Below the pieces are notes generated by a model that was not told the origin of the DNA, did not search any database, and was given only the letters and a program-made list of their open reading frames with translations. From the IMG/VR virus record IMGVR_UViG_2724679239_000009, positions 1 through 30,614 of that record: a stretch of DNA of 30,614 nucleotides; one strand, given 5' to 3'. Numbering within the stretch: position 1 is the first letter of the stretch; each line of letters starts with the position of its first letter. The DNA is from a virus (taxonomy: Duplodnaviria > Heunggongvirae > Uroviricota > Caudoviricetes). Below, in pieces: positions 1-23,149 of the stretch. A program made the position numbers and the translations under genes.

Positions 1-228
1 CCTGGCGCTGGCTCCTTTACCGTTCATCTCAAATCCCGTCCCCTGAATGGGATAGGCCTGATACTGCCGCCCCTGCCAGATGACCGGTTCGCCTTTTTCG
101 TTCTGCTCATTACAGAAAAAATAACGCTCTCCGCCGACTTCTGTCAGATCGACTTCCCAGAGCACGACCAGCGCGGATTGCTCCGCTTTTGTACACTCAT
201 TCAGTGTTTCCTGCTGTATATCCTGCAT
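1..228 (-). CDS. L: Minor tail protein L, N-terminal part only; the gene continues past the window start
   Basis: Minus-strand translation from ATG at 228 reads MQDIQQETLNECTKAEQSALVVLWEVDLTEVGGERYFFCNEQNEKGEPVIWQGRQYQAYPIQG, near-identical to my recollection of the lambda gpL N-terminus. Start overlaps the gpM stop (ATGA). Confidence 0.85.
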   Translation of the reverse strand, partial: MQDIQQETLNECTKAEQSALVVLWEVDLTEVGGERYFFCNEQNEKGEPVIWQGRQYQAYPIQGTGFEMNGKGASAR

Positions 229-569: not shown

Positions 570-3500
570 TGCATAATCCTCCGTCCCGACGTGATGACTG
601 CATAATTGACACAACCCTGCTGTCGATCAGATCCACCAGCCCCCTGGCTGACTGCGTATCTGTCTCGCCATTGCTCCCTTGATTCTGAATGCTGATGTGA
701 TACACGGGAGAATAAACAAATCCACCGCCACCATTCACATTGCCAATGGCTCTGACTCCAAGAGAGCCGTCCGCTGCCCGAGTCAGTGGCATGATAGCTT
801 CAGGCCCGGCCTCGCCCATCAGCCCGGCACCTTTCGCAAAAGCAAAATACGTCGGTGTATCCACAATGGTGTTACTGTAAGCACTCAGATTTGCCGGTGT
901 GTAAACACCACCTTTTGCGTTTGCCACTGCACCGGAAAGCCAGTCGCCGACCGTACCAAGCCATCCTCCGGCACCGGACATGCTTTTGGAAAGTGACTTC
1001 AGCCCGTTAACGATGGCAGCGTTCATCAGAATTTTTGAAACTTCCTGGAGAATTGAACTCCCCCAGTTTCTCCAGTCCACAACATTCCCGGCCAGTGCAT
1101 CGGAAATATTTGATACCAGCCCGTCCATGGTGGAAACGACAGCATCTGCCGCCAGTGAAGCATAATCGGTGGCGCTGTCTGCCCAGTTGGTCAGTCCCTC
1201 CTGGAGTCCGGCATTCCAGTTATTACGTAAAGCATCGGCCTTTGCATAATAATCCTGCTGATCGCTGAGACGCTCTTCCAGATATTTTTTATTCAGTTCT
1301 TTCTCCTGTTTCCACAGGGCTTCTTCAATTTCTCCGGTCTGATACTGTCTCAGGAGTTCGTTATTTTTCTGCTCAAATGCCTGCCGGATACTCCACATTT
1401 CCCGGAGTCGTTCACGCATCCGTGAGCCTTCACCATATCCCAGCAACTGCGCATCGTCAGATGCCCGGACACTGGCATTACTGTCCGCCAGGCTGCTTTC
1501 ATAAGCAGCAAGCTGCTCACGAATCTTTTTCTGGTCAATGAGTGCCGCATTCTGTAAAAGCGTTTTTTTCTGCGCTTCTGACAGAGTTGATAATTCGCCC
1601 TGACTGATCTGATACTTCATCCTGGCCAGTTCAGTATTCTGCCCTGCCAGTGCTATTTGTTCTTTTTGCTGTTTAATCAGCCGTTTATAAATATCTTCTG
1701 TTTTTTCCGCTTCGGTCTTTTTATGTGTTTTAGGTTTATTTGCCTGGTTATTTCGCCAGGCATCCAGTGAGTTATTGATATAATTCTGTCTGGCTGCCTG
1801 ATACGCCTCTCCCACAAAGCCGAGATCATCCGCAGCATAACCCAGGCGGGCACGCTCACGGGCTTCCCCCTTCAGGCGGGACAGAGCCAGTTCACGCTCG
1901 CTATTATTCAGCGCAGTCTGCTGTTTATCATCCAGAATGGCCTGTGGCAGCCGTAATGGTACATTCACCAGCCCCTGACGCTGCTGAAGTAACTCATTAC
2001 CAAGCCCAAGAAGACGATTAAACTCGGTATGCTGCCCATTCATGATCAACAGGGACTGATACGCTTTGTTTTGTTCTGCCGCCTGTTGACGGATTAACGC
2101 CACCCGTCGCTCCTCCAGCCCGGCAAGCACATCCTGAATGGATTGCGCTTTGCCCTGCATTTGTGTGAGACGGGACTGTTCAACTGCCAGTTGATTTGTT
2201 GCTTCTGCAAGCCCTTCTGTGACAGTTTTTACCGACGTCATGTGGTTAATCATAAAACCGTTATCGGTTGTCCAGCCCGGGTTTGCCAGCACATACTGAT
2301 AGCCAGCAATTTTTTCCTGTAAGGATTTGATCTTACTTTTCTGCTCGTCAATTAACCTGTTTTGCTCATCAAGTGCCTGCCGCGTCTTTTCTTCATTATC
2401 TGACGTTTCAGGAAGCGACATTGCCGACGTTTTCTGGCGAATTTCGTCGATTGTTGCGGCATACTGGCGTGCAGATTCTCTGGCCTGCTCCTGATTCTGA
2501 TACATCGTGTACCAGGCCGCAGCCCCCAGCATGACAAGCCCCGGCACACCACCAACCAGCCCCAGTGCCCCACTTAACAGACGACTCCCCACTGACGTGA
2601 CAGTATTCAGCGTTGTCTGTGCCGCTGTTCTGGCCGCAATATTACGGGTAAGTGACGCCTGGGCAGCTGTCAGCTTCGCTTCTGCTGCGGCCTGCCTTTC
2701 GGTACCGCGAGCAGCAACAACCGCCTGTTGCGCACGATAAACCGCCGCACGCGCCCTGGCGGTTGCTATCTGTGTCCCCCGAAGTTGCGCTTCAGCAAGA
2801 GCCACTTCGTTTCTGGCTGCAGTAATTAATCCGGCAGTTGCAGATCCAGCAGAAGACGCCATATTGCCAAAATATCGGGCTACCCCGACGGCAACCAGAG
2901 CACCGGCAGCGGTTGCCACGGTGTCAATATTGCCTGCAATACCATTCAGCACACCAGAGAGCGTCTTCGTCACTCCGCTTGCCTCGTTCGCACCACCAAC
3001 CCAGGCCATAAAGGCGTTTTCAACTTTGGTTGCAGAGGATGAAACCGTATCAGGCATTGCTGCATATTCATCACGCAACGCCCCAAGCTGACTAATCAGT
3101 GCAGGAACAACCTTATCGGCGGTCAGTTTTCCGTTATCCGCCATGGCCTTCAGATCCTTACGGGCAACGCCCATTCCCGCAGCCAGCGCACGAATAACAC
3201 GATCACCGCTCTCATTCACGGCGTTAAATTCTTCACCGCGCAGCACTCCCTGCGCCAGTGCCTGGCTGAACTGCGTGATCACCGAACTGGCTTCTGCTGT
3301 ACTGGCACCGGATAATTTCAGGCCCGTGGAGATCGCCTCGGTGACGTTCAGTACCTCCTCAGAACTGTAGCCATACTCCCGCATGGAAGCTGCAGAGCGG
3401 GCAAAAAGGCTGGCGTTATCAGAAAACGCCGTTCCCGTTCTCTGGCTGATTGCCATTAATTCACGTTGTGATACCTGAAAATCATCACTGGACTGTGAGG

Positions 3501-3807
3501 CCTGCTTCAGACGGGCATTTACTGAACTCCATTCATCCGCAAGAGATATTAGATGTCCAGTGGCAAAAGCACCGACAAATGCCCCCGCCATATTCAGTGC
3601 CGAAGACTTCGCCGTATTTATCTGATCCGTCACTTCTGCCAGTGCACGCCGCATTTCACGGGAGGCAGCAGCAGACTGTTGGCCTCCGTTCTGCATGGTG
3701 CGGTAGTAATCCTGCCCCATACGCGAAGCCCGGGAGATCTCTGACTGGAATGACCGGGAATTTGCCGAGATTTTAATAATCAGTTCACGTAATGTCGCCA
3801 CACTCAT
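562..3807 (-). CDS. Tail tape measure protein (1081 aa)
   Basis: Very long Ala/Gln-rich coiled-coil ORF sitting between the G/T chaperone and gpM, the canonical tape measure position. GGAGA RBS before the ATG. Confidence 0.9.
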   Translation of the reverse strand: MSVATLRELIIKISANSRSFQSEISRASRMGQDYYRTMQNGGQQSAAASREMRRALAEVTDQINTAKSSALNMAGAFVGAFATGHLISLADEWSSVNARLKQASQSSDDFQVSQRELMAISQRTGTAFSDNASLFARSAASMREYGYSSEEVLNVTEAISTGLKLSGASTAEASSVITQFSQALAQGVLRGEEFNAVNESGDRVIRALAAGMGVARKDLKAMADNGKLTADKVVPALISQLGALRDEYAAMPDTVSSSATKVENAFMAWVGGANEASGVTKTLSGVLNGIAGNIDTVATAAGALVAVGVARYFGNMASSAGSATAGLITAARNEVALAEAQLRGTQIATARARAAVYRAQQAVVAARGTERQAAAEAKLTAAQASLTRNIAARTAAQTTLNTVTSVGSRLLSGALGLVGGVPGLVMLGAAAWYTMYQNQEQARESARQYAATIDEIRQKTSAMSLPETSDNEEKTRQALDEQNRLIDEQKSKIKSLQEKIAGYQYVLANPGWTTDNGFMINHMTSVKTVTEGLAEATNQLAVEQSRLTQMQGKAQSIQDVLAGLEERRVALIRQQAAEQNKAYQSLLIMNGQHTEFNRLLGLGNELLQQRQGLVNVPLRLPQAILDDKQQTALNNSERELALSRLKGEARERARLGYAADDLGFVGEAYQAARQNYINNSLDAWRNNQANKPKTHKKTEAEKTEDIYKRLIKQQKEQIALAGQNTELARMKYQISQGELSTLSEAQKKTLLQNAALIDQKKIREQLAAYESSLADSNASVRASDDAQLLGYGEGSRMRERLREMWSIRQAFEQKNNELLRQYQTGEIEEALWKQEKELNKKYLEERLSDQQDYYAKADALRNNWNAGLQEGLTNWADSATDYASLAADAVVSTMDGLVSNISDALAGNVVDWRNWGSSILQEVSKILMNAAIVNGLKSLSKSMSGAGGWLGTVGDWLSGAVANAKGGVYTPANLSAYSNTIVDTPTYFAFAKGAGLMGEAGPEAIMPLTRAADGSLGVRAIGNVNGGGGFVYSPVYHISIQNQGSNGETDTQSARGLVDLIDSRVVSIMQSSRRDGGLCSA

Positions 3808-3823
3808 TCTCCGGACGAAAAAA

Positions 3824-3839
3824 AACCGCCGAAGCGGTT
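3824..3839 (-). terminator. Terminator-like hairpin just upstream of the tape measure start
   Basis: aaccgc-cgaa-gcggtt hairpin followed on the minus strand by T8 and then the GGAGA RBS and ATG. Confidence 0.5.
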
Positions 3840-3847
3840 ATGTTGAC

Positions 3848-4536
3848 TCACTGAGACACTATTAAAAGCGCGTTTTCCAGTCCGGCAAATGGATCTGATA
3901 CGCCTTCTGTCTGCTCCTTCTCCCACTGAAGAAGCGCATCATTCAGTGGCACTTTGACCCCCTGCGCACCGTAAACAGCTGAAACAATCTGGGCAGCCCG
4001 GATATCAGCCCGTTCGTCCCCCAGCGGGCTGAACCTGTCAAATTCTGCCCACATCATGATTTCTGATGCGGACATTTCCCGGCGTAACTCTGACAATGTG
4101 CGCCCCATCCTGAGCGCCAGCATCATCAGAAAACGCATCCCCGGAAGCGCTACTTTTTTTTAACCTCGCCGGCATCACTGATCAGTTCCAGAGACTGCCG
4201 AAGAAGCCGCGCATGCACCGGACCATACACGGCAATCACCTGTTCACGATCATCCTCTGAAAATACAGGTTGCAGTCCGGTATCACACAGAACATCAATG
4301 AACAGTTCAACATCTGCCTCCAGATTTCGGCGGGCGCGCTCCGCAACGGATAACGGTGTCTCATCATCTTTTGCTTTAACGATCTCCTGCCAGCGCAACC
4401 AGGCTTCTGCAGAAGGTTCCCGTAATACAACCGTTGCCCCTTCCCATTCAGGCACATCAACAGTTTTATGGCGAAACCCCGACATCGTTGCCAGTGCCAG
4501 ATTACGGATATTTTTAGTCATCACATCTATCCTCAT
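3848..4536 (-). CDS. Tail assembly chaperone G-T-like fusion made by programmed -1 frameshift (T part 3848..4138)
   Basis: The G ORF ends ...GAG GTT AAA AAA AAG TAG; the slippery A_AAA_AAG is at about 4152-4158. The -1 frame is open from there into the 96-aa ORF with a gpT-like motif (EIMMWAEFDRFSPLG). Position between major tail and tape measure. Confidence 0.75.
4150..4536 (-). CDS. Tail assembly chaperone (gpG-like), zero-frame product
   Basis: 128-aa acidic ORF directly after the major tail gene, ending in the slippery run. Its start overlaps the major tail stop. Confidence 0.75.
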   Translation of the reverse strand: MRIDVMTKNIRNLALATMSGFRHKTVDVPEWEGATVVLREPSAEAWLRWQEIVKAKDDETPLSVAERARRNLEADVELFIDVLCDTGLQPVFSEDDREQVIAVYGPVHARLLRQSLELISDAGEVKKK

Positions 4537-5240
4537 TAACTGACGGTAACAGTGCAGGAAGTGGAGGTCACCTTGTTAACAGGGCTTGCTGAATCAGAAA
4601 TCTCGCAGGTATACGCACCGGCATCACCGGATGCTGCTGATGCCTTACTAAACGTTGCCGCCGTCTGTCCGGAAACAGGAGAACTACCTTTCTTCCAGAC
4701 ATAAGAATAAGGCGGCACACCACCGGCAGCCTCAACCACCATTTCGAGTTTCGCTCCGGCAGAAACCTGCAGCGTGCTGTTTAAATCGACCTTCACTTTC
4801 AGCGGCTCTGTCGTCAGCACAGGTTTACCTTTCAGGCGCAGGGAAAACGTTGCAGCCACAACACCATTGGTTCCTGCAGACCAGGTATGCTGACGCACCT
4901 CTGCCATAAAGGTAAATCCGTTGCCTGACGGAAAAATAACTTTAAAGCCATACGTGGTGTCATTGTCATAGGCACTGCGCAACGCATTCTGGGCAGCATT
5001 GAGGTAAAAGTTGCCTGACATGGAAATCTCTGACGCGGCACCAAGACCGTTAATATTTTCCTGCTCAACAGAACACAGCGTGGTGACATCAATATCCTGC
5101 TTTTGTCCTGCGGTAAACTGCACCTCTTTGATTGTACAGCTCAGGCCAAGATAGCTGGCAGAATCCAGGGTTTCTGCTGTTACCGGTGCAGACGAAATCA
5201 TAATTTTCGTCAGTTGCGAACGCTCAAAATTAGAGGACAT
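4536..5240 (-). CDS. Major tail protein with C-terminal Ig-like domain
   Basis: 234-aa ORF upstream of the G/T chaperones with AGGAGA RBS. The C-terminal segment is Ig-like (PPYSYVWKKG...AGAYTCEISD). Confidence 0.8.
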   Translation of the reverse strand: MSSNFERSQLTKIMISSAPVTAETLDSASYLGLSCTIKEVQFTAGQKQDIDVTTLCSVEQENINGLGAASEISMSGNFYLNAAQNALRSAYDNDTTYGFKVIFPSGNGFTFMAEVRQHTWSAGTNGVVAATFSLRLKGKPVLTTEPLKVKVDLNSTLQVSAGAKLEMVVEAAGGVPPYSYVWKKGSSPVSGQTAATFSKASAASGDAGAYTCEISDSASPVNKVTSTSCTVTVS

Positions 5241-5264
5241 ACTCGTCTCCTGAAAATAAAAAAA

Positions 5265-5279
5265 CCCGCCAGCGGCGGG
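5265..5279 (-). terminator. Terminator-like hairpin just upstream of the major tail gene
   Basis: cccgcc-agc-ggcggg followed on the minus strand by T7, about 20 nt before the major tail RBS. Confidence 0.5.
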
Positions 5280-5299
5280 TGGTTAAATCATTAACGACC

Positions 5300-5644
5300 T
5301 CAGGCTATTACCTGAAATTCAAGCGTGGCTCTGCTCAGACGGGAATCAGGATCATAACCCTGAGTTTTAGAAATAACGGAGGGTGCAAGTTGCCTTACCG
5401 CATCAAGCGCCTGCTCACGGATATCATCTGCGTCATCAGGTACTGTTGCCCAGACATCGATCTGCACGGTAATTCTGGATTCAGCCTGACCATCAAGCAC
5501 ATCAGACGCAGTGTCAGACACCACAGAAAATACCAGCCATGGTGGAGATACCGCAGGCTTTCCCTCCGTCAGCGGGACCACATAAGGATAAACCTGTCCT
5601 CCGGCCAGTTGAGACAGCAGGGAATACAGTGTGGTCTCTCTCAT
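5300..5644 (-). CDS. Putative tail completion or tail terminator protein
   Basis: 114-aa ORF between the HK97 gp10-like gene and the major tail gene. Assigned by position and size only. Confidence 0.55.
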   Translation of the reverse strand: MRETTLYSLLSQLAGGQVYPYVVPLTEGKPAVSPPWLVFSVVSDTASDVLDGQAESRITVQIDVWATVPDDADDIREQALDAVRQLAPSVISKTQGYDPDSRLSRATLEFQVIA

Positions 5645-6090
5645 TTACTTAAGACCTCATCAATAGCCTGATTCATTCGCTGTATGGCAACCTGCGCCGC
5701 CAGTTCTTCTGTCGTATCAAACGCCGGACGAATGAACGGGTGAGCAGGCATGTTTACCGTTCCCAGCTCGACAAAGCGCCAGTAAAACGCATTTCGGGGA
5801 TCGCTGACTTTCATGCTGTTATCACTGTTTCCGGTTCGCAGATTTCGTCCGCGAATGTGAACACCCGAGATAATTTCCCCCCGACGTTTTGATCGCTGAG
5901 TCAGAACAACCACATTTTTCTTCAGTTTTCCGGTTCGCTCCGGCGCTCGTTCAACAACCGCATCCCGCATAGCTTCAGCACCGGCACGGGTGGCATCGCG
6001 CAGTACCTTATTGTTTTCTGCCCTGCTGAGCGTCTCCAGATCCCGTGCAATATCCGCCAGGCCGGAAAAATCAAGACTGAAATCCATCAC
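5641..6090 (-). CDS. HK97 gp10-family tail component
   Basis: 149-aa ORF with RGRNLRTGNSDN...NAFYWRFVELGT...HPFIRPA signature I associate with the HK97 gp10 family. Overlaps both neighbours by 4 nt. Confidence 0.7.
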   Translation of the reverse strand: MMDFSLDFSGLADIARDLETLSRAENNKVLRDATRAGAEAMRDAVVERAPERTGKLKKNVVVLTQRSKRRGEIISGVHIRGRNLRTGNSDNSMKVSDPRNAFYWRFVELGTVNMPAHPFIRPAFDTTEELAAQVAIQRMNQAIDEVLSK

Positions 6091-6425
6091 ACATTCCCCT
6101 TCAGGCTGCAGAGTATTTCAAGCCGGGTAGCGCGTGCATCCGGTATTGGTGGACCTTCTATACCCAGAATGGCCCCTTTAAATGCACCGGTCAGCACTTT
6201 CAGACGTGAAGTCGCTGTCACATCGCGCCGGAATCTCATCCAGACTCTGACCGTAGCCTGAGCGGTTTCTGCTCCGCCTGAGATTATCTCCCTCCCGCTG
6301 ATACCCTTAACTTCTGCCCATACGGTAGCTCCCTCCGTCACCGTCTCCACCGGATGCCCTGACGGAGAGCGGGCGGTGGTGACATTCAGAATAATTACGC
6401 GATCACGTAATCTGCCCGCCTGCAT
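6087..6425 (-). CDS. Head-tail adaptor (head closure) protein
   Basis: 112-aa ORF in the canonical position with a typical head-tail joining profile. Confidence 0.65.
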   Translation of the reverse strand: MQAGRLRDRVIILNVTTARSPSGHPVETVTEGATVWAEVKGISGREIISGGAETAQATVRVWMRFRRDVTATSRLKVLTGAFKGAILGIEGPPIPDARATRLEILCSLKGNV

Positions 6426-6433
6426 GCCTCCTC

Positions 6434-6751
6434 CTACAAAGGAATAAAACGATAAGGCTCCAGCAGAGAAGAAAAACCAAACGGGACTGGTGCCTTGCTG
6501 ACATCTGAGGAATTTTCCCGGTTTTCGTACCAGTGCCCGACCAGCAACATGAGCGCCAACAAAACATCATCAGCTATAAGCACCCCTTCAGGATCACCTT
6601 CCGGCACCGTCTCCTCATAAAGCTTACGGTTGATAAAATTTTCTGCCTTGCGGCAGGCAGCCCGGAAATACAGCATCAGTAACTCATCATCAGTTGCATC
6701 ATCTGTATCAATACGGCACTGCGCCCTGAGTTTTTCCACTATTGCTGCCAT
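6434..6751 (-). CDS. Head-tail connector protein (gp6-like)
   Basis: Start moved to ATG at 6751 (MAAIVEKLRAQ...), which has an AGGAG RBS and lies after the post-capsid hairpin. The longer listed ORF (to 6931) would overlap the capsid gene. Confidence 0.65.
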   Translation of the reverse strand: MAAIVEKLRAQCRIDTDDATDDELLMLYFRAACRKAENFINRKLYEETVPEGDPEGVLIADDVLLALMLLVGHWYENRENSSDVSKAPVPFGFSSLLEPYRFIPL

Positions 6752-6790
6752 CAGAAACTCCTGCCCGCAACACTGTGCGGGCATAAAAAA

Positions 6791-6806
6791 ACCGCGTCGG
6801 CGCGGT
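6791..6806 (-). terminator. Hairpin with T-run immediately after the major capsid gene
   Basis: accgcg-tcgg-cgcggt followed on the minus strand by T7, between the capsid stop (6828) and connector start (6751). Confidence 0.55.
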
Positions 6807-6827
6807 CTGTAACTGAACAACGAGTGG

Positions 6828-8045
6828 TTATTTGCCAGTGAGCGCCTTGATGGCTGCCACATCTTCCAGCACACAGTCAAAACGATGGAAAGCCAGAAAT
6901 GCCACCTGATCAAACTCAGCATAACGCTCAACCAGACGTTTCAGTTCCATATAAGTAACGCGGCGAATGATAAAGCGGTTGAAATCCCCCAGGAAAATGA
7001 ATTTTTTTCCGGTACCAATCCCGTCAATAGCCTGATCAATAACATAAGGGATCCCCAGCACAGTAGCCGGCGTACCGCCTGCAATATCCGGCAGCCATAA
7101 CGGGCGTTTCTGTCCATCCTCCATCTCTTCAATAGTCTGCAATGTGGCATCATTGAATGCCCAGCGGTATTTCGGCCCACCACGATATGCCGGATCAATG
7201 GCATGTTTCAGGGCATTCATTTCTTTCCAGGTGAAAGCGGCAGAGGCTGCAGTCTGGATGGTTCCCGTCACCGACGCTGCCAGCCCTTTTGGCTGTAACG
7301 GTGATCCCGTTCCGGTCCCCTGAACCAGATATTTTGCCTCTCCACGACCAATACGCTGGGCAATACGGTTTGCCAGATAAGATTCAATATCCACCCCACT
7401 ATCCTGGAGCAGCTCATTGGACACACGAATTATTTTTGATGACAGCTTTTTAGCCCCCAGAATAGCGGTCCCGAACGTCACATCTTGTTCCGTTGCGGCT
7501 GTATTTTCCGCCAGCAGTTCGCCCTCTTCAGTCGTGCCATCAGACGTTGACCAGGTGATATCCTGCCCGGTTGATGTGGTCAGAAGTTGCGCCACACTGG
7601 CAATCCCGCCATAAGCCTTCATGGTGTCAATGATTTTGTTACGCATCTGCGTGGGCACCGTATATCCGCCCTGAGAATCCGTTGTTACACTCTGAGCCCG
7701 CAGTTCACACATCAGATTACGCTCTTCAGCATTCAGTTCTGCAAATCCGGCACGCAGAAAACGGTTAAATGCCGCAGCGCGCTTCTCTTCCACCGCCTTT
7801 TTCCCGTTCTCCGCCTCATTATTCTGGCGCTCTTCCGGCCCGGACTCATCCACATATGCCTGATCCTGACGGCGCAACTCTTCTTCACGGGCGATTTGCT
7901 CATCCAGCGCATCCAGCTCAGCTTTCGCCCTGTTCCACTCTGCCCGTTGCTCATCAGTCCATGCGTTATCACCAATTTTTTCATGCAGTGCACGCATATC
8001 CTTTGCAATGGTGTTTCGTTTTTGCTTCATCTCATGAAGTTTCAT
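6828..8045 (-). CDS. Major capsid protein, HK97 fold, with N-terminal delta (scaffold) domain
   Basis: 405 aa. N-terminal about 110 aa is charged coiled-coil, followed by a capsid body. Follows the prohead protease. Confidence 0.9.
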   Translation of the reverse strand: MKLHEMKQKRNTIAKDMRALHEKIGDNAWTDEQRAEWNRAKAELDALDEQIAREEELRRQDQAYVDESGPEERQNNEAENGKKAVEEKRAAAFNRFLRAGFAELNAEERNLMCELRAQSVTTDSQGGYTVPTQMRNKIIDTMKAYGGIASVAQLLTTSTGQDITWSTSDGTTEEGELLAENTAATEQDVTFGTAILGAKKLSSKIIRVSNELLQDSGVDIESYLANRIAQRIGRGEAKYLVQGTGTGSPLQPKGLAASVTGTIQTAASAAFTWKEMNALKHAIDPAYRGGPKYRWAFNDATLQTIEEMEDGQKRPLWLPDIAGGTPATVLGIPYVIDQAIDGIGTGKKFIFLGDFNRFIIRRVTYMELKRLVERYAEFDQVAFLAFHRFDCVLEDVAAIKALTGK

Positions 8046-8059
8046 CGTCAGTAGTATCC

Positions 8060-8659
8060 TTATGCATTAAGAAGGGTCAAAAGACGCTCACGCGCCATTC
8101 GTTCGTTAACAGCTTTCTTCAGCGCACCACTCGCCCGCGCTTCCTGCCAGGCTTTCATTGAGCGGACACCAGAGTCTGCGTCCTGATAGGCCGGATATGT
8201 CACCGGGCTGACGTCATACAGACGAGAAATGCGCGTGATTTCCCGGATAACAATCCCCTCGTCGTCTTCATACCAGCTCTCTCCATCACGGGCGACGCGA
8301 AACGCGAACGAGGACTGATTAATGTCACCACGCAACATTGGTGACAGCACCAGGTCACAAATCGTCGGCGTATCCGGTGCAACAATGTCATAACGCAAAC
8401 CACGTTCATCCACTGATAATGACAACGTGCCGGCAGAACTTCGTCCGAGAATGAAATTAGGATCATGATTAAACAAGCCACGTACATCATCATTCAGCAC
8501 GTCGTCAAAAGCCCCCGGCTTGATGATTTCACGAAATCCCCACAGAGGTTCTGAACGACTGTTAAATACCGAGCCATACCCCAAAATATGAGTCGGGGCA
8601 TTATCATATTGTTCTGCCCGCACTTCCCCGCAGTAACAGCGCGTTTCACGGTCATTCAT
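8060..8659 (-). CDS. Prohead maturation protease (HK97 gp4 / S78 family)
   Basis: Start placed at MNDRETR (8659), just after the portal stop. Sits between portal and capsid genes. Confidence 0.85.
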   Translation of the reverse strand: MNDRETRCYCGEVRAEQYDNAPTHILGYGSVFNSRSEPLWGFREIIKPGAFDDVLNDDVRGLFNHDPNFILGRSSAGTLSLSVDERGLRYDIVAPDTPTICDLVLSPMLRGDINQSSFAFRVARDGESWYEDDEGIVIREITRISRLYDVSPVTYPAYQDADSGVRSMKAWQEARASGALKKAVNERMARERLLTLLNA

Positions 8660-9749
8660 CGTTCTTTTCCTCTTTGCCTTTCGTATCTTTAAAATCATTC
8701 AACGGATTTGCTGCATTTACGCTGACCAGCATTTCATCCAGACCATCAACCGGGTTCATGTCCTCAAATGCCCTGGCTTCATTCCGGCTCATCCAGCCAT
8801 CTGTAATGGCAAAGTGATAAAACTGCGCACGCTCCTGTGGAGTCCCGCGGAGCAATCCTGTAAGGTTGAAACGAACGTAATACCCGGCAGCCCGTTCTGT
8901 GCGGGTAAACAGGCGACGGTTAAGCTCCTGCTCCCAGTTCGCAACCCAGGGCATCATCGTGTAGCGAACAAACTGAATCGCCTGCTGTGTAATATTCGAA
9001 AATGTGGCTTTTTCCAGGTCATTAATCATGTGCGCCGGGACATTAAAAATTCCGGCAATCATCGACCGGTTCAGCTTGGTCATATCAATGATCTGAGCAT
9101 CCACCGGAGAAACTGTCAGGGCACGGTAATCCAGTTGCGCAGGCAGCAGCATGGTTTTATTTTCCTGACTGCGAAGCGCTGTCACCGCCCGCTGCCACAT
9201 ATTCTTGAGCCTGCTCCAACTCTGTTCGTTCAGTTCATTTTTCACAGAGATAATCCCGGCAGGACGGGCATTACCGTTAAAAAAAGCACTGGTATACTGC
9301 TGACCACTCATTCCCATACCAATGGTTTCAGCATGCTGCATGATCGGACTCAGTCCCATTTTCTGATTGTTTCCCAGCGCCCTGATATGGATCATATCGT
9401 CCGGACTTACCGCAAATGCCCCCTCTTCGTTATACACCCCGTAGGTATGACGCCCACCAGTATTAAGTAACGTGGTTTCCCATGGCATACAGCATTCAAG
9501 ACTGGTAACCTCGCCACGACGATTACGTTTTACCCACGTATAACCATTGCCCCACCCCAGCACATGACGCTGCTTCAGTTCCCGCCACTTATAGCTGGTC
9601 TGCCAGGCATTAGGTTCATCATGAACGAGCCAGAACAACGGATGATCGCGTGCCGGCTGAACATGCTCATTCGTTTTTCGCATCACATGCAGGGGCATCT
9701 GAGCCACACTGGATGAAATAACATAAATACAGGCATAGACAGCAGCCAG
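8652..9749 (-). pseudogene. Portal protein, C-terminal 365 codons, cut off from its start by IS2
   Basis: The portal reading frame runs straight out of the IS2 terminal repeat. The listed ORF start at 9776 lies inside IS2 and is an artefact. Confidence 0.85.
9745..9749. repeat. IS2 target-site duplication GCCAG (left copy)
   Basis: The 5 bp immediately flanking both IS2 ends are identical (GCCAG at 9745-9749 and 11081-11085). Confidence 0.85.
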
Positions 9750-9760
9750 TGGATTTGCCC

Positions 9761-18914: not shown

Positions 18915-20021
18915 TCAAACAATCTGGAAAATATTTCTTGGATTTGTAATAGGTCTGTTGATGGAGAACAACTCACGAATTAAATCTTGGCTCAAGCCAG
19001 TTTTCATAAGAATTCTTAGCCAGGTTGCATCATCCAGCATTTCAATCGCCTCGGCCAGCATGCCGGGTTCTTCAGGGCGCAAAAGTTCATCACCAGGTTC
19101 AACTCTCGTATACCCTCTGGAATTAAGATGCATATAGCCAGTTCTTGCCTGTTCCTGGGTCAATAAGCCTAATGCGCTGGCTCGATAAATACACATTTTA
19201 AGGCTGATTTTCCATCTAAGTTTAAATTCAACCAGAGCATTCCAGTCGAATTGCTTACCTCGTATTCGTGGAAATTCTTTAATGAAAGATAACCTGGGAA
19301 CTAATAAGGCGCTCGAAAAGTGATCGGCTTGAGATTCCGTAAGTTTATCACCTGTCGTTATGCCCTCATGCATTACTAAATGCCCTAATTCATGACCTAA
19401 ATCAGAGCGAAATCTACATATGCTTTTTTTAACATTGTTCCTGATGATAACAGGCCTGTTATTGTGAACAGTAAAAGCATCAACACGATCATCGACTCCC
19501 GTAACATGCGCAACGATTACCCCTAAACTCTCCGCCAATTTAACCATTGATGATATAGGGCCAAGACCTAAATTCCAGGCACGGCGACAATCTTCTGCCA
19601 CTCGCTCAATATCATTCGGAGTAAGTAATTCAGCCCCTGGGTGCTCCGGTATGTTAACGTCAGGAAATTCGATTTCACCTTCAACAGCAGAAATTATAAT
19701 ATTAAGAATCTCAGCCCTGGCCAATACACTATTAGTCAGCGTTTGAGTCCTGGACTTCTTACTCCGAAAATGGCAGACATCACTTTCCAGAGCGTATTTT
19801 CGTTCAGTAAAAAGAAAACTGGACTTAATCATAAGCGCTGAAGATATTAACTCAAGACATTGCTCCGATGGCCTGCACCCCTTCTCCAGTTTGCTAACGA
19901 ATTGCTTTGTCTTGCCAATTTTTTCGGCTAACTCTTCACAAGAAAGCCCAACAGCCATTCTCGCTAGTTTGAGCTTATCACCCCGATACTCAGTGAAGTT
20001 ATTCACCTGATGTTCCATCAC
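18915..20021 (-). CDS. Fusion protein: N-terminal Xre-type HTH plus ImmA/IrrE (COG2856-like) zinc metallopeptidase
   Basis: HTH segment LKLARMAVGLSCEELAEKIGKTKQFVSKLEKG; central HEXXH zinc motif (GHELGHLVMHEG). AT-rich codon usage. Start overlaps the upstream gene by 23 nt. Confidence 0.75.
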   Translation of the reverse strand: MMEHQVNNFTEYRGDKLKLARMAVGLSCEELAEKIGKTKQFVSKLEKGCRPSEQCLELISSALMIKSSFLFTERKYALESDVCHFRSKKSRTQTLTNSVLARAEILNIIISAVEGEIEFPDVNIPEHPGAELLTPNDIERVAEDCRRAWNLGLGPISSMVKLAESLGVIVAHVTGVDDRVDAFTVHNNRPVIIRNNVKKSICRFRSDLGHELGHLVMHEGITTGDKLTESQADHFSSALLVPRLSFIKEFPRIRGKQFDWNALVEFKLRWKISLKMCIYRASALGLLTQEQARTGYMHLNSRGYTRVEPGDELLRPEEPGMLAEAIEMLDDATWLRILMKTGLSQDLIRELFSINRPITNPRNIFQIV

Positions 20022-20649
20022 TGCTCACATCCAAATCTTTATCCTTCGTACGCCGACGAAGAGGCACCTTATTAATCTCCGCTTCGTCAGGGAGTGTGTT
20101 ATAATCAAGAGGCATAAGCGGCATCGATGCTGTAGATTGATGAGAAACTATACTAATCTGAGCACCATAAGTATTAAATCCAACAAGAGCTACCTCCCAA
20201 CGAGGCAGTGTGGACTCTAATTCACCATCGCCCTCTTCGGATAAAAAAGGCTCAGCTATGACTCGCCATGTAATATCTTGCTCAGCCTCAACATCACCAA
20301 ACAATGAGAGCTGCTCATACTCTACTTTATTTCGACGCAGACGATGTTTCTTTTTGGGGTTATTAATGCAATCTTTGGTAAATTGTAGCGGAACTTTATT
20401 TAAAGCAACTACATAGTCCAACCCCTTGGAAATCATCTCAAGGCCAGGAATTGCATCTTCATTTTGAATAAGATGATTTCTGACCCAATCATAAGCCCTT
20501 ACACCTTCAGACCAGTTGCTGTCTAATGCGTGCTTATGATAGTACAGCTGCTCAAGTACGTTAGCGATCTCCGCCAACAAGTGGCGAACATAGTTTTCAG
20601 CAAGATAAGGTTGAAATTCCCAACAAGGAGCTAACTGATTTTCATTCAT
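19999..20649 (-). CDS. Hypothetical protein (216 aa), first gene of a two-gene accessory operon
   Basis: ORF with acidic C-terminus and no motif I recognise. A consensus -35 hexamer TTGACA (minus strand, 20708-20713) lies upstream. Confidence 0.6.
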   Translation of the reverse strand: MNENQLAPCWEFQPYLAENYVRHLLAEIANVLEQLYYHKHALDSNWSEGVRAYDWVRNHLIQNEDAIPGLEMISKGLDYVVALNKVPLQFTKDCINNPKKKHRLRRNKVEYEQLSLFGDVEAEQDITWRVIAEPFLSEEGDGELESTLPRWEVALVGFNTYGAQISIVSHQSTASMPLMPLDYNTLPDEAEINKVPLRRRTKDKDLDVSSDGTSGE

Positions 20650-20730
20650 TTCAAGTTTCGCTTTTTTTAGAATTCGTAAACCACATATTTTCGCATTTTT
20701 CTATTTTTGTCAACCAGACTAATGCAAAAA

Positions 20731-20744
20731 CCCGCCGAAGCGGG
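20731..20744 (-). terminator. Intrinsic terminator (minus strand) after the hok gene
   Basis: cccgc-cgaa-gcggg hairpin followed by T-run on the minus strand. Confidence 0.7.
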
Positions 20745-20814
20745 TTAAGTGCGGGTGCGTTGAGGATGCCTGGCACATCAGAGGTGGCGGGAGATTACTC
20801 CCCCGCCGGGTCTC

Positions 20815-20970
20815 TTACTCCTCAGGTTCGTAAGCTGTGAAGACAGCGACCTCCGTCTGGCCGGTTCGGATTCGTACCTCGCAGAGGTCTTTCCTCGTTA
20901 CCAGTGCCGTCACTATGACGGTTAAACAGATGACGATCAGGGCGATTAACATCGCCTTTTGCTGCTTCAT
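20815..20970 (-). CDS. hokD: Hok-family membrane toxin (HokD/RelF-like, 51 aa)
   Basis: Hand translation MKQQKAMLIALIVICLTVIVTALVTRKDLCEVRIRTGQTEVAVFTAYEPEE, with AAGGAG RBS. Matches the Hok family and HokD as I recall it. Too short for the supplied ORF track. Confidence 0.85.
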   Translation of the reverse strand: MKQQKAMLIALIVICLTVIVTALVTRKDLCEVRIRTGQTEVAVFTAYEPEE

Positions 20971-21341
20971 AGCCTGCTTCTCCTTGACCTTTTGGTCCGT
21001 AAGAGGCTAATCTCTATGTGTCGCATAGATATGGCCTCAGATTAATGTTAAGCGTCTTGCAGGACGCGTAATGTTAACTGGGGCTTTTCTCTATCTGCCT
21101 TTTGGTGTTCATGCCTGAGGCAGATAGCCTCAAGCACCCACAGCAATTCTACTTAACTCCCGCCACCTCGCCAATATAAAATCAATCAGAAAGGCGATCC
21201 ATAAGAACAATAGCAAGACAATAAATTGCCACTACAGCCGCAATAGCCAGCGCGCATTTGAGAACCAGCACGATAACCTCCTGTATTGGACGTACACCAG
21301 CTCTGATAAATATGAGGCTGCCTCTTTAACTTCGCATTGCG

Positions 21342-22373
21342 CTACCAATCAATAAAATCAGTGATGTTATCCAACCTAATTACAGTAACTTCCCGTCTCA
21401 ACTGGTTTTTCCAATATATCTCACGAGCGTTTTGTTCACCAGCACCGCTCCACTCAATTACTCTTAAAGGCTTAGAGGTTAGGTAAGGTCGAATAAGCAG
21501 GTTAAGGTGAATATCGAGACCAGAGTAACCAAACAATATTATTTCTTCTGATTCAAATAATGCAAACTGCAAATAATCCCAGTACGTAGAAAGAACATTA
21601 GATGCTGCTATAACTGACGGTTTTCTTTTTATATGAGTTAACACTATATGCTCACTAGGTTCATCTATGTCAAGAGTAAGTTGTGAGCGTGAAAGTTTTA
21701 AAACATTTTCATGCTGATTAATAAATAGTGGTGAACCATGCAAGTGCAAATAATAACCAAACCTACGATTGTATTTCCGTTCGAGCGCTGCAGAGGAAAA
21801 TCCGTGGCTTAGCATCCCATCAACTAAAACCCCATCATACCCGTTGAATATATCATTATCTATGAATGAATTGTATAATAATTTGTCATAGTTTAATGTC
21901 GCGATATGTGAGTGTGTGTTCTTTACAAACTCCACAAGCGCATTTTCGAATCTTTGTGGCAAACCTTTATCGTAATTATGCAACCTGGTTGCAACTTTGT
22001 GAATATAAGTGGCGGTAATTTTGGGGAAGTTTAGTCCATCTTCAGTAAGCCAATGCACGTTCCCCTCTCCAATTTGAGCAAGAGCTTTACAATATGTGAC
22101 AGCCTGGTGAAGGGTATCCAACTCATGTTCTCCTTCTGGTGGACCTTGCCGCTGAAGACAACGCTCGATAAGTTGCTTGTGGATATCTTTTAAAAAATTG
22201 GGGCGATGCCAAATTTCTTCCAACGCTCTGTCTAAGGAGAAGTGAGCAGGATCTAAAGCCATACCGAGACCGTTGCCGAATATTATTAATTTTCTTGCCA
22301 TATAGGGGGACTCATATTGGAATAACGCTGGATAGCGTCGCGCGATACGCTTAAGTTTAGGATTAATAGACAT
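21342..22373 (-). CDS. SIR2-like (SIR2_2 / DHS-like NAD-binding fold) protein, candidate NAD+-consuming defence effector
   Basis: 343 aa. Motifs in the expected order: glycine-rich IIFGNGLGMA near the N-terminus, TLNYDKLL (sirtuin TQNID/TTNYD-like), LHLHGS (catalytic His-Gly), ILFGYSGLD. Strongly AT-rich with an AT-rich 370-bp upstream region. Confidence 0.6.
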   Translation of the reverse strand: MSINPKLKRIARRYPALFQYESPYMARKLIIFGNGLGMALDPAHFSLDRALEEIWHRPNFLKDIHKQLIERCLQRQGPPEGEHELDTLHQAVTYCKALAQIGEGNVHWLTEDGLNFPKITATYIHKVATRLHNYDKGLPQRFENALVEFVKNTHSHIATLNYDKLLYNSFIDNDIFNGYDGVLVDGMLSHGFSSAALERKYNRRFGYYLHLHGSPLFINQHENVLKLSRSQLTLDIDEPSEHIVLTHIKRKPSVIAASNVLSTYWDYLQFALFESEEIILFGYSGLDIHLNLLIRPYLTSKPLRVIEWSGAGEQNAREIYWKNQLRREVTVIRLDNITDFIDW

Positions 22374-22741
22374 TCCGTTTGATTACACTTGTTATTACAA
22401 ACTTGCATGCAAAGAAGCCCAAGCTGTTAGGTAAACAGAGACCGCAGTGGCAAGATAATCTAGATATAGCCTATAAAATCCAACAACAAATAGCGGCCTG
22501 TTTTCTATGACTTTTCTTTTCCCTAAATATCGCTTATCTAATAAAATGCAATAATGTATTGCACAGTATTTAATGTGTATTAATATAGATAAGTATTGGT
22601 CTTATTTGATAACAAATCCTGAGCCTCAAAATGTCTGCTTTTCACACAAAACCAACAAGTAGGCTATTTTTAGCTCTGTGCCGCGAAAATGTCAATTCAT
22701 ATCCGAACCAATACTCTTTAATTTCATTACCTGTGACAATT

Positions 22742-23149
22742 CTAGGCATATCCCTGATAGAACGCCAATACACGCTGCATAACTTCGCTCTTCCGGCACT
22801 CGCGACAGATTATGTTCATACGCCTGTCGTAGCGGCGTATTTCTCCGTCGGGTAATGTCCAGATAAGGCCCGGATCAACCACAACAGGTTTCTTCACCTT
22901 TGCCCTCGAGAGTTTTTTGCGGGCGTTTTGCCAGTCCTTACGAGCCCGTTCTGACGGGAACACCCCATAGCCAGAGTGATATACATCACCACTGGCAACC
23001 AGCTCTCTGGCAAGAACGCTCATCAGATATCTTGTCGCACCTGTTTTAGCTTCCAGTTGCCGTAACGTCTCACGACCGCTCTGGCGCACGAGTTCCACCA
23101 CCTGTCCTTTAATTTTTTCCCGCTCTTCCTGTGTAAATACTTTTGCCAT
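22742..23149 (-). CDS. Ren-like protein
   Basis: The C-terminus ...ICRECRKSEVMQRVLAFYQGYA resembles the lambda Ren C-terminus as I recall it, and the gene follows the replication gene as ren does in lambda. Confidence 0.45.
   Translation of the reverse strand: MAKVFTQEEREKIKGQVVELVRQSGRETLRQLEAKTGATRYLMSVLARELVASGDVYHSGYGVFPSERARKDWQNARKKLSRAKVKKPVVVDPGLIWTLPDGEIRRYDRRMNIICRECRKSEVMQRVLAFYQGYA

What the first reader, a model, noticed from the sequence alone, without database searches (positions are those of the whole stretch)
18915..20713. Two-gene AT-rich operon: unknown 216-aa protein translationally coupled to an Xre-HTH / ImmA-type metallopeptidase fusion
The second gene fuses an Xre-type helix-turn-helix to a HEXXH zinc peptidase of the ImmA/IrrE type, whose family members are known to cleave repressors in response to DNA damage. 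The first gene has no motif I recognise and overlaps the second by 23 nt. The operon has its own consensus -35 and a terminator, lower GC than the phage backbone, and sits between hokD and the nin genes. I cannot assign it to a described defence or toxin-antitoxin system from sequence alone.
Basis: partly seen in the sequence, partly recalled or inferred. Interest (0 to 1): 0.85.

Follow-up and report, generated by a model that had tools for sequence, protein, structure and literature searches.

The report
RosmerTA toxin-antitoxin defence cassette in prophage
The two genes are a member of the already described RosmerTA toxin-antitoxin / anti-phage defence family, carried as a self-contained cargo cassette in a lambda-like prophage of E. 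coli, so the finding is real but not new.

Summary
On the minus strand, a 216-aa gene (19999-20649) overlaps by 20-23 nt a 367/368-aa gene (18915-20018/20021). The second gene encodes an Xre HTH fused to an M78 (ImmA/IrrE-type) zinc peptidase with an intact HELGH. The pair has about 41.5% GC against about 49.5% for the rest of the window, a consensus TTGACA -35, and a terminator. It lies between hok/sok and the DUF968/RusA/Q genes of a lambdoid prophage.

PADLOC models call the pair RmrT (PDLC03929, E=4.6e-25, full length) and RmrA (PDLC03943, E=6e-105). That is RosmerTA (Millman 2022), previously described as a toxin-antitoxin pair (Luo 2015; Rousset 2021).

- RmrA is 29% identical over 300 aa to the experimentally verified E. 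coli OLC-716 RmrA.
- The toxin is unrelated to the verified toxin, as is usual for Rosmer.
- In every locus examined, relatives of the 216-aa protein sit directly upstream of an HTH+M78 gene, whatever the surrounding context.
- The 1835-bp cassette is flanked by a perfect 20-nt duplicated terminator. It is absent from phage mEp460 and present at about 99.9% identity in 237 of 5426 complete E. coli genomes.

The toxin's biochemical activity and the trigger remain unknown. Interest is low.

The parts
20726..20745 (-). Upstream copy of a perfect 20-nt direct repeat (AAAAACCCGCCGAAGCGGGT on the + strand). This is the hokD intrinsic terminator hairpin and the left boundary of the cassette.
   Evidence: Repeat family D1. 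Terminator scan 20746-20729. Phage mEp460_ev081, which lacks the cassette, has a single copy. The exact 16-mer occurs twice in the window; no shuffle reached the 3 matches (up to 2 mismatches) observed.
20685..20713 (-). Candidate sigma-70 promoter of the operon. It has a consensus -35 TTGACA (20713-20708). The -10 is weak: AAATAT at 20690-20685 with a 17-nt spacer, or TGcGAAAAT at 20695-20687 as an extended -10 with a 15-nt spacer.
   Evidence: Read from the sequence. Not called by the consensus scanner. The region is conserved from the -35 to the ATG in E. coli, Enterobacter, Serratia and Xenorhabdus, while the upstream flanks are unrelated.
20656..20716 (-). Two ~28-nt direct repeats, 33 nt apart. 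On the minus strand they read GGTTGAC...GCGAAA and GGTTTAC...GCGAAA. The first covers the -35 and the second lies between the -10 and the start codon. They are a candidate operator for the RmrA HTH; this is an inference.
   Evidence: Direct repeat at 20656-20683 and 20689-20716, 71% identity. Both units are conserved in four genera.
19999..20649 (-). rmrT: the 216-aa putative toxin. It is soluble and acidic (pI 4.9) with no transmembrane segment.
   Evidence: ORF. PADLOC RmrT PDLC03929, E=4.6e-25, residues 7-209 against profile positions 5-195 of 198. PHROG 5786, E=8e-85. No Pfam or NCBIfam match. Family of 69 clusters at 50% identity, and all 64 aligned members hit PDLC03929. AF2 model pLDDT 84. 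Physicochemical values.
19999..20018 (-). 20-nt overlap between the rmrT stop and the rmrA ATG (23 nt if the GTG at 20021 is used). There is no strong Shine-Dalgarno sequence, which fits translational coupling.
   Evidence: Sequence. RefSeq start in E. coli 042. 20-nt overlaps in Enterobacter and Serratia, 14 nt in Xenorhabdus.
18915..20018 (-). rmrA: the 367-aa putative antitoxin/regulator, an Xre HTH fused to an M78 zinc metallopeptidase.
   Evidence: PADLOC RmrA PDLC03943, E=6.2e-105, plus 13 further RmrA models. PHROG 2439, E=8e-123. 29% identity over 300 aa to the verified OLC-716 RmrA, E=2e-35.
19833..19973 (-). Xre-type helix-turn-helix domain of RmrA.
   Evidence: Pfam HTH_3, E=5e-7. 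PDB sequence matches to SinR and the 434 repressor HTH.
19176..19493 (-). Peptidase_M78 (ImmA/IrrE-like) domain of RmrA. HELGH lies at residues 209-213 (19380-19394), and the third zinc-ligand candidate is E228.
   Evidence: Pfam PF06114, E=6e-11. HEXXH position. H209, E210, H213 and E228 are invariant in 11 RmrA sequences of 29-93% identity, including the verified one.
18885..18910 (-). Downstream copy of the 20-nt repeat. This is the operon's intrinsic terminator (stem ACCCGC/GCGGGT, loop TTCG, T-run) and the right boundary of the cassette.
   Evidence: Terminator scan. Repeat D1. Cassettes in Enterobacter and E. coli ET881 end with the same stem but different loops.

Best explanation
**What it is.** A RosmerTA-family toxin-antitoxin / anti-phage module, carried as an autonomous cargo cassette ('moron') in the nin region of a lambdoid prophage.

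**Shown here**
- The two genes match the RmrT and RmrA models.
- RmrA has the family's HTH + M78 architecture with invariant zinc-binding and catalytic residues.
- The RmrT-then-RmrA gene pair is conserved across unrelated genomic contexts.
- The 1835-bp unit has its own conserved promoter region and terminator. It is an insertion relative to a related phage.

**Inferred from published family members** (vmi480/470, E. coli E101 and E. coli OLC-716)
- RmrT is a cytoplasmic growth-arresting toxin.
- RmrA, made by coupled translation from the same mRNA, neutralises it.
- RmrA probably also represses the operon through its HTH, acting at the two conserved repeats that overlap the promoter.
- In the lysogen the pair is expressed from its own promoter.
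- When a superinfecting phage perturbs RmrA, free RmrT stops the cell and aborts the infection, probably for a narrow set of phages. The most likely route is a peptidase-dependent event such as self-cleavage between the HTH and the peptidase, by analogy with ImmA/ImmR, IrrE/DdrO and CapP/CapH.

**Unknown.** The toxin's biochemical target is not known. Its predicted fold only weakly resembles restriction-endonuclease-like proteins and lacks their catalytic motif.
For: **Family assignment**
- PADLOC calls RmrT at E=4.6e-25 (full length) and RmrA at E=6e-105.
- All 64 members of the wider toxin family hit the same RmrT model, best E=3e-72.
- RmrA is 29% identical over 300 aa to the verified RosmerTA antitoxin of E. 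coli OLC-716.
- H209, E210, H213 and E228 are invariant across 11 RmrAs.

**Conserved gene pairing**
- Nine further loci were examined: 4 distant (22-29% toxin identity) and 5 closer.
- In every one, the toxin homologue lies directly upstream of a 363-381-aa HTH_3+Peptidase_M78 gene, with spacing from -20 to +7 nt.
- The contexts differ: lambdoid nin regions, the Q-holin region, integrase/resolvase islands, and a defence island.
- Toxin and antitoxin identities to the window pair fall together: 84/92, 65/73, 55/64, 41/59 and ~23/34 %.

**Cassette structure**
- Insertion flanked by duplicated terminators, with an empty site in mEp460.
- Low GC.
- The promoter region is conserved in four genera.

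**Consistent with toxin-antitoxin logic (a single case)**
- In strain FDAARGOS_1249 an IS5 disrupts rmrT while rmrA stays intact.

**Literature**
- The delta-rmrA mutant was untransformable, and the system defends E. coli (10.1101/2022.05.11.491447).
- Vmi480 is lethal and Vmi470 rescues it (PMC4671572).
- The E101 module makes clpP essential (10.1101/2020.05.25.114553).
- Rosmer toxins are diverse, and 58% of pairs are toxin-first (PMC10440598).
Against: - No experiment exists for this allele or, as far as I could establish, for this particular RmrT family.
- The verified OLC-716 toxin shows no detectable similarity to it.
- I could not show that Vmi480 or E101_02645 belong to the same toxin family.
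- In the related PD-lambda-2 system the Xre-peptidase protein, not its upstream partner, was the toxic component (PMC9519451). Polarity is therefore not guaranteed by architecture.
- The role of the peptidase, the trigger and abortive infection are all analogies.
- The promoter's -10 is weak, and the 'operator' is only a conserved repeat.
- Published Rosmer homologues sometimes give little or no protection (PMC12322248).
Confidence: 0.85

Rival explanations
1. Addiction or stabilisation module only. The pair is a toxin-antitoxin system whose selected function is to stabilise the prophage by post-segregational killing. It would have no anti-phage role.
For: - It sits next to hok/sok, a classical post-segregational killing locus.
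- The family was first described purely as a toxin-antitoxin pair on a genomic island (PMC4671572).
- Members lie on plasmids and islands.
- Some Rosmer homologues protect poorly (PMC12322248).
Against: - RosmerTA from E. coli and from Gordonia phage Kita did protect against phages when tested.
- One homologue sits in a defence-island context (L005), and the window cassette lies two genes from a SIR2-family gene.
- The two roles are not mutually exclusive.
Confidence: 0.15
2. Reversed polarity. The Xre-M78 protein is the harmful component, and the 216-aa protein is its inhibitor or a sensor, as reported for PD-lambda-2.
For: - In PD-lambda-2, over-expressing the Xre-peptidase component alone was toxic, and the upstream gene rescued it (PMC9519451).
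- The 216-aa protein has no recognisable toxic domain and no catalytic motif.
Against: - For Rosmer-type pairs, deletion of the peptidase gene was impossible and the upstream gene alone was lethal.
- An IS5 knocks out rmrT and its promoter while leaving rmrA intact in one genome.
- Several truncated or frameshifted rmrT alleles exist.
Confidence: 0.07
3. Prophage regulatory switch. The HTH-peptidase is a fused ImmR/ImmA-like repressor/anti-repressor that controls induction or late genes of this prophage after DNA damage. The 216-aa protein would be an accessory regulator.
For: - M78 peptidases such as ImmA and IrrE cleave Xre repressors after DNA damage (PMC10440598; PMC6868357).
- The gene lies in the early-right operon region of a lambdoid prophage.
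Against: - The cassette is present or absent among otherwise similar prophages and is missing from phage mEp460.
- It occupies different positions in different prophages, and also non-phage islands and plasmids.
- The prophage has its own CI-type repressor and a YdaT-like gene.
- The cassette is insulated by terminators and has its own promoter.
Confidence: 0.03

Closest known systems
RosmerTA of E. coli OLC-716 (RmrT 239 aa / RmrA 370 aa; Millman et al. 2022, bioRxiv 10.1101/2022.05.11.491447, Tables S2/S11)
   Same: - Toxin-first two-gene operon.
- RmrA of the same length and architecture (Xre HTH + M78, HEXXH), 29% identical over 300 aa.
- Same host species.
   Different: - The toxins show no detectable similarity (BLASTP E=7; hhalign probability 0.3%).
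- This allele is untested.
vmi480/vmi470 of Vibrio mimicus MGIVmi1 (Luo 2015, PMC4671572) and E101_02645/02644 of an E. coli E101 prophage (Rousset 2021, bioRxiv 10.1101/2020.05.25.114553)
   Same: - A ~200-aa toxin with no recognisable domain, encoded first.
- A ~362-aa HTH + Zn-peptidase antidote encoded second.
- Carried on mobile elements or prophages.
- The toxin size (198 aa) equals the length of the PADLOC RmrT model that the window protein matches.
   Different: - I could not obtain their sequences, so membership in the same toxin family is unproven.
- The clpP dependence shown for E101 is not known for this allele.
RmrT(D5)/RmrA of Gordonia phage Kita (Ernits 2023, PMC10440598)
   Same: - Phage-borne Rosmer pair with an ImmA-type antitoxin.
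- Narrow-spectrum defence.
   Different: The Kita toxin is membrane-targeted and depolarising. The window toxin is soluble and acidic, with no hydrophobic segment.
PD-lambda-2 (Vassallo 2022, PMC9519451)
   Same: An Xre-HTH/peptidase fusion downstream of a small partner gene, found in the E. coli pangenome and active in defence.
   Different: - PD-lambda-2 has three genes: a HigB-like first gene and a P4-antitoxin-like third gene.
- The peptidase fusion is the toxic part.
- Neither extra feature is present here.
ImmA/ImmR (ICEBs1), IrrE/DdrO (Deinococcus) and CapP/CapH (CBASS)
   Same: M78/COG2856 zinc peptidase working with an Xre HTH. There is a weak PADLOC capP hit, E=1.6e-14.
   Different: - In those systems the protease and the repressor are separate proteins that control other genes.
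- Here they are fused in one polypeptide and paired with a toxin.
- No CBASS, ICE or DNA-repair regulon is adjacent.

Membership tests
RosmerTA (Millman 2022; PADLOC/DefenseFinder definition) | RmrA: a ~360-400-aa protein with an N-terminal Xre HTH fused to an M78 Zn-peptidase, matching an RmrA model | tested here: met
   PADLOC PDLC03943, E=6.2e-105, plus 13 other RmrA models. Pfam HTH_3 + Peptidase_M78. 29% identity, E=2e-35, to the verified RmrA.
RosmerTA (Millman 2022; PADLOC/DefenseFinder definition) | Intact zinc-binding/catalytic HEXXH plus a downstream Glu | tested here: met
   HELGH at 209-213. H209, E210, H213 and E228 are invariant in 11 RmrAs.
RosmerTA (Millman 2022; PADLOC/DefenseFinder definition) | Adjacent co-oriented gene matching an RmrT (toxin) model | tested here: met
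   PADLOC RmrT PDLC03929, E=4.6e-25, covering 7-209 of 216. 64 of 64 family members hit the same model.
RosmerTA (Millman 2022; PADLOC/DefenseFinder definition) | The toxin-antitoxin gene pair is conserved as a unit across different genomic contexts | tested here: met
   In all nine further loci examined, an HTH+M78 gene lies immediately downstream, with spacing of -20 to +7 nt.
RosmerTA (Millman 2022; PADLOC/DefenseFinder definition) | RmrT is toxic and RmrA neutralises it | not testable with these tools
   Indirect only: an IS5 in rmrT with rmrA intact in one genome, and literature on other members.
RosmerTA (Millman 2022; PADLOC/DefenseFinder definition) | Confers resistance to phage infection | not testable with these tools
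   Shown for the OLC-716 and Kita systems only.
ImmA/ImmR- or IrrE/DdrO-type protease/repressor pair | M78/COG2856 metallopeptidase domain | tested here: met
   Pfam PF06114, 42.6 bits against a cut-off of 22.
ImmA/ImmR- or IrrE/DdrO-type protease/repressor pair | A separate adjacent Xre repressor gene that is the protease's substrate and controls the element or regulon | tested here: not met
   The HTH is fused to the peptidase. The only partner gene has no HTH. The cassette is dispensable cargo.
CapP/CapH regulators of CBASS | Located beside a CBASS operon (CD-NTase plus effector) | tested here: not met
   The neighbours are hok/sok, a SIR2-family gene, DUF977, a rem-like gene, DUF968, RusA and Q. 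The capP/capH hits are weak.
PD-lambda-2 (Vassallo 2022) | HigB-like first gene and a third P4-antitoxin-like gene | tested here: not met
   No HigB or other Pfam match in the 216-aa protein. A terminator follows rmrA directly.
PD-(D/E)xK (restriction-endonuclease-like) nucleases, as a home for the toxin | alpha-beta-beta-beta-alpha-beta core fold | tested here: inconclusive
PD-(D/E)xK (restriction-endonuclease-like) nucleases, as a home for the toxin | Catalytic D ... (D/E)xK residues on strands 2 and 3 | tested here: not met
   The conserved polar residues are D43 (loop), E110 and Q113 (helix), and R129 and E133 (strand 4). No D/ExK pattern is conserved on strands 80-92.
NCBIfam NF052239 spr1629 family repressor/antitoxin (equivalog) | Score at or above the curated cut-off (335 bits) | tested here: not met
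   155.9 bits, E=1.5e-45: related, but below the cut-off.

The most novel reading that the evidence does not exclude
The PDLC03929 RmrT family, about 200 aa and spread across Proteobacteria, is annotated everywhere as 'hypothetical'. It could be a toxin with a new mode of action, built on a degenerate restriction-endonuclease-like fold that has lost the canonical catalytic triad. Its conserved residues are D43, E110, Q113, R129 and E133. Its fused Xre-M78 partner could be a phage-sensing autoproteolytic switch that cleaves itself or the toxin's disordered C-terminal tail, rather than a simple binding antitoxin. Neither point has been resolved for any Rosmer system in the literature I could search.
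Probability: 0.25. Interest if true: 0.5.

Novelty: already known. Interest (0 to 1): 0.22.

Why it matters
The cassette adds one more catalogued defence/toxin-antitoxin unit to the cargo of E. coli lambdoid prophages. It is found in about 4% of complete E. coli genomes, including 042, ABU 83972 and VR50. RefSeq still labels the two genes 'hypothetical protein' and 'helix-turn-helix domain-containing protein', so the practical gain is correct annotation. Scientifically, Rosmer's trigger, the role of its peptidase and this toxin's target remain open. A very common, near-clonal E. coli allele with a soluble toxin would be a convenient model for settling them.

Tried and rejected
1. **Function of the toxin from sequence.** Pfam and NCBIfam gave nothing. 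A PDB sequence search with a 64-sequence profile gave nothing below E=0.18.
2. **Function of the toxin from structure.**
   - The first AF2 model, from 13 close sequences, was poor (pLDDT 62).
   - A second model, from 64 sequences, was good (pLDDT 84).
   - BFVD gave nothing, and AFDB50 was unavailable.
   - Conservation analysis did not support a PD-(D/E)xK active site.
3. **Linking this toxin family to Vmi480 or E101_02645.**
   - An accession text search found only the original preprint.
   - The accessions are absent from the supplements of Ernits 2023.
   - Seven family members have a Thr at position 46 in the conserved W(S/T)xG motif, matching the E101 T46S suppressor position. Their clusters are from Pseudomonas, Aeromonas and Rhizobium, not E. 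coli.
   - The link stays open.
4. **Checking whether Millman's homologue table lists E. coli 042, ABU 83972 or V. mimicus.** The stored files are truncated and gave nothing useful.
6. **Sequenced phages.** None of the 50,697 GenBank phage records holds the cassette by DNA or the toxin by tblastn. It is seen only in prophages, islands and plasmids.
7. **A palindromic operator.** Only a weak palindrome around the EcoRI site was found. The conserved signal is a direct repeat.
Full report
**1. The observation**

Both ORFs are on the minus strand. The 216-aa ORF spans 19999-20649 and the 368-aa ORF spans 18915-20021.

- **Start codon and overlap.** The longer ORF begins with a GTG that is immediately followed by an ATG at 20018. 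RefSeq uses the ATG (367 aa, WP_000401168.1 in E. coli 042). The overlap with the first gene is then 20 nt instead of 23 nt. The Enterobacter and Serratia relatives also overlap by 20 nt.
- **Domains.** Pfam finds HTH_3 (17-63) and Peptidase_M78 (177-282) in the second protein and nothing in the first. HELGH is at residues 209-213, window 19380-19394.
- **Composition.** The cassette has 41.5% GC, against 49.5% for the rest of the window and 51.4% for bases 1-18000. GC3 is 0.35-0.38.
- **Promoter.** On the minus strand a consensus TTGACA lies at 20713-20708. The -10 is weak, and the consensus scanner did not report a promoter there.
- **Terminator.** An intrinsic terminator (ACCCGCTTCGGCGGGT followed by a T-run) follows the second gene at 18910-18895.
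- **Neighbours.** One side holds hok (20815-20970) with a full-length sok RNA match (Rfam RF01794, 107 bits). The other side holds a rem-like ORF, DUF968, RusA and antiterminator Q.
- **Prophage.** The window is a lambdoid prophage with lysozyme, terminase, a CI-like repressor, YdaT and DUF977.

**2. What it is**

PADLOC-DB models identify the first protein as RmrT (PDLC03929, E=4.6e-25, residues 7-209 against profile 5-195 of 198). They identify the second as RmrA (PDLC03943, E=6.2e-105, plus 13 further RmrA models). RmrT/RmrA is the RosmerTA system.

- Millman et al. 2022 named it. [quoted passage not shown] They could not transform a delta-rmrA mutant (bioRxiv 10.1101/2022.05.11.491447).
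- Their verified system comes from E. coli OLC-716, and its sequences are in their supplementary table.
- The window RmrA is 29% identical to that RmrA over 300 residues (E=2e-35), with the same length and layout.
- The two toxins are unrelated. This is the rule in the family: Ernits et al. [quoted passage not shown]
- PHROGs also holds both proteins: phrog_5786 of unknown function (E=8e-85) and phrog_2439 (E=8e-123).

**3. The toxin family**

- **First search.** A word-indexed search found only Enterobacterales relatives of at least 53% identity, in Enterobacter, Buttiauxella, Serratia, Xenorhabdus, Plesiomonas and Salmonella.
- **Profile search.** A profile search of 1.84 billion cluster representatives found 69 clusters at E<=1e-3, nearly all 190-225 aa.
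- **Same model.** All 64 aligned members hit the same PADLOC RmrT model, best E=3e-72.
- **Spread.** Named members come from Pseudomonas, Aeromonas, Shewanella and Rhizobium, and from plasmids of Roseomonas, Sphingobium, Cupriavidus, Klebsiella, Salmonella and others. All are annotated 'hypothetical'.
- **Properties.** The window protein is soluble and acidic (pI 4.9), with no hydrophobic segment. This differs from the membrane-depolarising Kita RmrT.
- **Structure model.** An AlphaFold2 model built on the 64-sequence alignment is confident (pLDDT 84, pTM 0.74). It has two long helices, a three-stranded sheet, a helix, three more strands and a disordered C-terminal tail of about 45 residues.
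- **Conserved residues.** The conserved polar residues are D43, E110, Q113, R129 and E133. They do not fall where a PD-(D/E)xK site would lie. The window protein even departs from the family consensus at two positions, R89 to Q and D94 to C.

I therefore treat 'nuclease-like' as a weak lead, not an assignment.

**4. Conserved pairing and mobility**

In every further locus I examined, the toxin homologue is followed at once by a 363-381-aa HTH_3+Peptidase_M78 gene.

- **Distant loci (22-29% toxin identity).**
  - Shewanella algae: beside an integrase and a resolvase.
  - A metagenome contig.
  - A locus where a HigB-like plus Xre-M78 pair lies upstream and a Multi_ubiq/ThiF system lies downstream.
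  - All four.
- **Closer loci.**
  - Xenorhabdus and Enterobacter: in the nin region.
  - Serratia: between Q and the holin.
  - E. coli ET881.
  - A Shiga-toxigenic E. coli (STEC) lineage in which the pair lies on the other side of hokD (toxin 41% and antitoxin 59% identical).
  - From.
- **Co-divergence.** Toxin and antitoxin identities decline together, with the toxin always diverging faster.
- **RmrA conservation.** Across 11 RmrAs of 29-93% identity, H209, E210, H213 and E228 are invariant. So are an F84-R85 pair just after the HTH and several arginines before the HEXXH. Peptidase chemistry is evidently under selection.

**5. The cassette**

- **Flanking repeat.** A perfect 20-nt direct repeat (AAAAACCCGCCGAAGCGGGT, + strand) lies at 18891-18910 and 20726-20745, 1835 nt apart. 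Each copy is a terminator hairpin.
- **Empty site.** Phage mEp460_ev081 has the same flanks with a single copy. Window 18201-18910 aligns to its 1827-2521, and window 20725-21300 aligns to its 2501-3076. The two genes are therefore an insertion at the hokD terminator.
- **Origin of the repeat.**
  - In Enterobacter and E. coli ET881 the cassette ends with a terminator of the same stem but a different loop.
  - The exact 16-mer occurs twice only in the E. coli loci that carry this cassette.
  - The duplication thus probably reflects recombination between two similar terminators.
- **Promoter region.**
  - The stretch from TTGACA to the ATG is conserved in four genera, while the sequences upstream of it are unrelated.
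  - It contains two ~28-nt direct repeats 33 nt apart, one over the -35 and one after the -10.
  - I propose these repeats as the RmrA operator. This is an inference.
- **Distribution.**
  - 237 of 5426 complete E. coli genomes hold at least 80% of the cassette.
  - 224 records are at least 99% identical, 9 are at 90-95%, and the rest are diverged variants.
  - No GenBank phage record holds it.
- **IS5 case.** In strain FDAARGOS_1249 an IS5 has destroyed the promoter and the 5' part of rmrT while rmrA is intact. This is the pattern expected if the first gene is the harmful one, but it is a single case.

**6. Mechanism**

- **Shown here:** family membership of both genes, an intact catalytic site, conserved pairing, and an autonomous, insulated transcription unit.
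- **Taken from published members:**
  - The upstream gene is lethal alone and is rescued by the HTH-peptidase (Vmi480/470, PMC4671572).
  - The peptidase gene cannot be deleted.
  - An E. coli prophage module of this architecture makes clpP essential. A point mutation in the toxin relieves this.
  - Rosmer systems protect against a narrow set of phages.
- **Inferred:**
  - RmrA neutralises RmrT and autoregulates the operon.
  - Infection disturbs RmrA, most plausibly through its own peptidase acting on the HTH-peptidase linker, as ImmA, IrrE and CapP act on separate Xre partners. Ernits et al. make the same suggestion.
  - Free RmrT then arrests the cell.
- **Unknown:** the toxin's target.

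**7. Rivals**

- **Stabilisation only (0.15).** A purely stabilising addiction module cannot be excluded computationally, and it is compatible with the position next to hok/sok.
- **Reversed polarity (0.07).** Polarity as in PD-lambda-2 is made less likely by the IS5 case and by truncated toxin alleles.
- **Prophage switch (0.03).** A role as the prophage's own ImmR/ImmA-type switch is contradicted by three observations. The cassette is present or absent among related phages. It occupies varied positions. It also occurs on plasmids and islands.

**8. Novelty**

The family, its architecture and its defence role are published, and current defence-finding models detect this exact pair. What remains unknown applies to Rosmer as a whole: the trigger, the role of the peptidase and the toxin's activity. 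I rate the finding as already known and of low interest. It does yield a useful annotation correction and offers a convenient model allele.

Noticed in passing
window 21342-22373 (-): A 343-aa stand-alone SIR2-family gene lies just upstream of hok/sok.
- It matches Pfam SIR2_2 at 26.1 bits against a cut-off of 24.5.
- PADLOC hits are weak: Aga_SIR2 at 4e-6 and PDC-S21 at 8e-6.
- Local GC is 0.35-0.43.
- It is found in only 46 of 5426 complete E. coli genomes. In at least one genome that has both (FDAARGOS_1059) it lies far from the Rosmer cassette.

It may be a second, less well characterised defence cargo gene.
   Followed up: partly
window 20815-23149; L001 13936-15165; L014 4467-5801: The slot between DUF977 and hokD holds different cargo in different strains. 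The window has the SIR2-family gene, FDAARGOS_1249 has QueH (epoxyqueuosine reductase), and E. coli 042 has small hypothetical genes. This part of the nin region behaves as a cargo hotspot.
   Followed up: partly
window 18891-18910 and 20726-20745: A perfect 20-nt duplication of a terminator hairpin brackets the cassette. Related cassettes in other genera carry a terminator with the same stem but different loops. This suggests that cargo cassettes are exchanged by recombination at terminator hairpins.
   Followed up: partly
L014 2585-4144 (E. coli FDAARGOS_1249): An IS5 inserted into the 5' part of rmrT has removed its promoter and N-terminus. rmrA remains intact.
   Followed up: yes
L005 2400-8606 (GCA_040961345.1): Three units lie in a row: a HigB-like gene plus an Xre-M78 gene (PD-lambda-2-like), an RmrT-RmrA pair, and a Multi_ubiq/ThiF/TCAD9 cluster. 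This is a defence island with two different peptidase-fusion systems side by side.
   Followed up: no
window 19999-20130 (RmrT residues ~172-216) and family alignment A3: The toxin ends in a disordered tail. The tail often carries a loose motif (hydrophobic, D/E, hydrophobic, x, x, P), then a basic patch and an acidic end. A permissive pattern matched 34 of 64 members, so this is weak evidence. It could be a docking or cleavage site, or a degron.
   Followed up: partly
L012 3782-5540 (E. coli 2015C-3163 and other Shiga-toxigenic (STEC) strains): A second E. coli lineage of the same Rosmer subtype exists (toxin 41% and antitoxin 59% identical). It is inserted on the opposite side of hokD, between DUF977 and hokD.
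   Followed up: yes
window 15610-15763 (-): Two tRNA genes, tRNA-Gly(TCC) and tRNA-Thr(TGT), lie between the Q antiterminator and the lysis genes. Many lambdoid prophages carry tRNAs at this position.
   Followed up: no
window 27065-29545 (+): An 826-aa early-left-operon protein has a C-terminal Rv2179c-like 3'-5' exoribonuclease domain (Pfam E=4e-68). The homologous position in E. coli 042 is annotated simply as 'exonuclease'.
   Followed up: no
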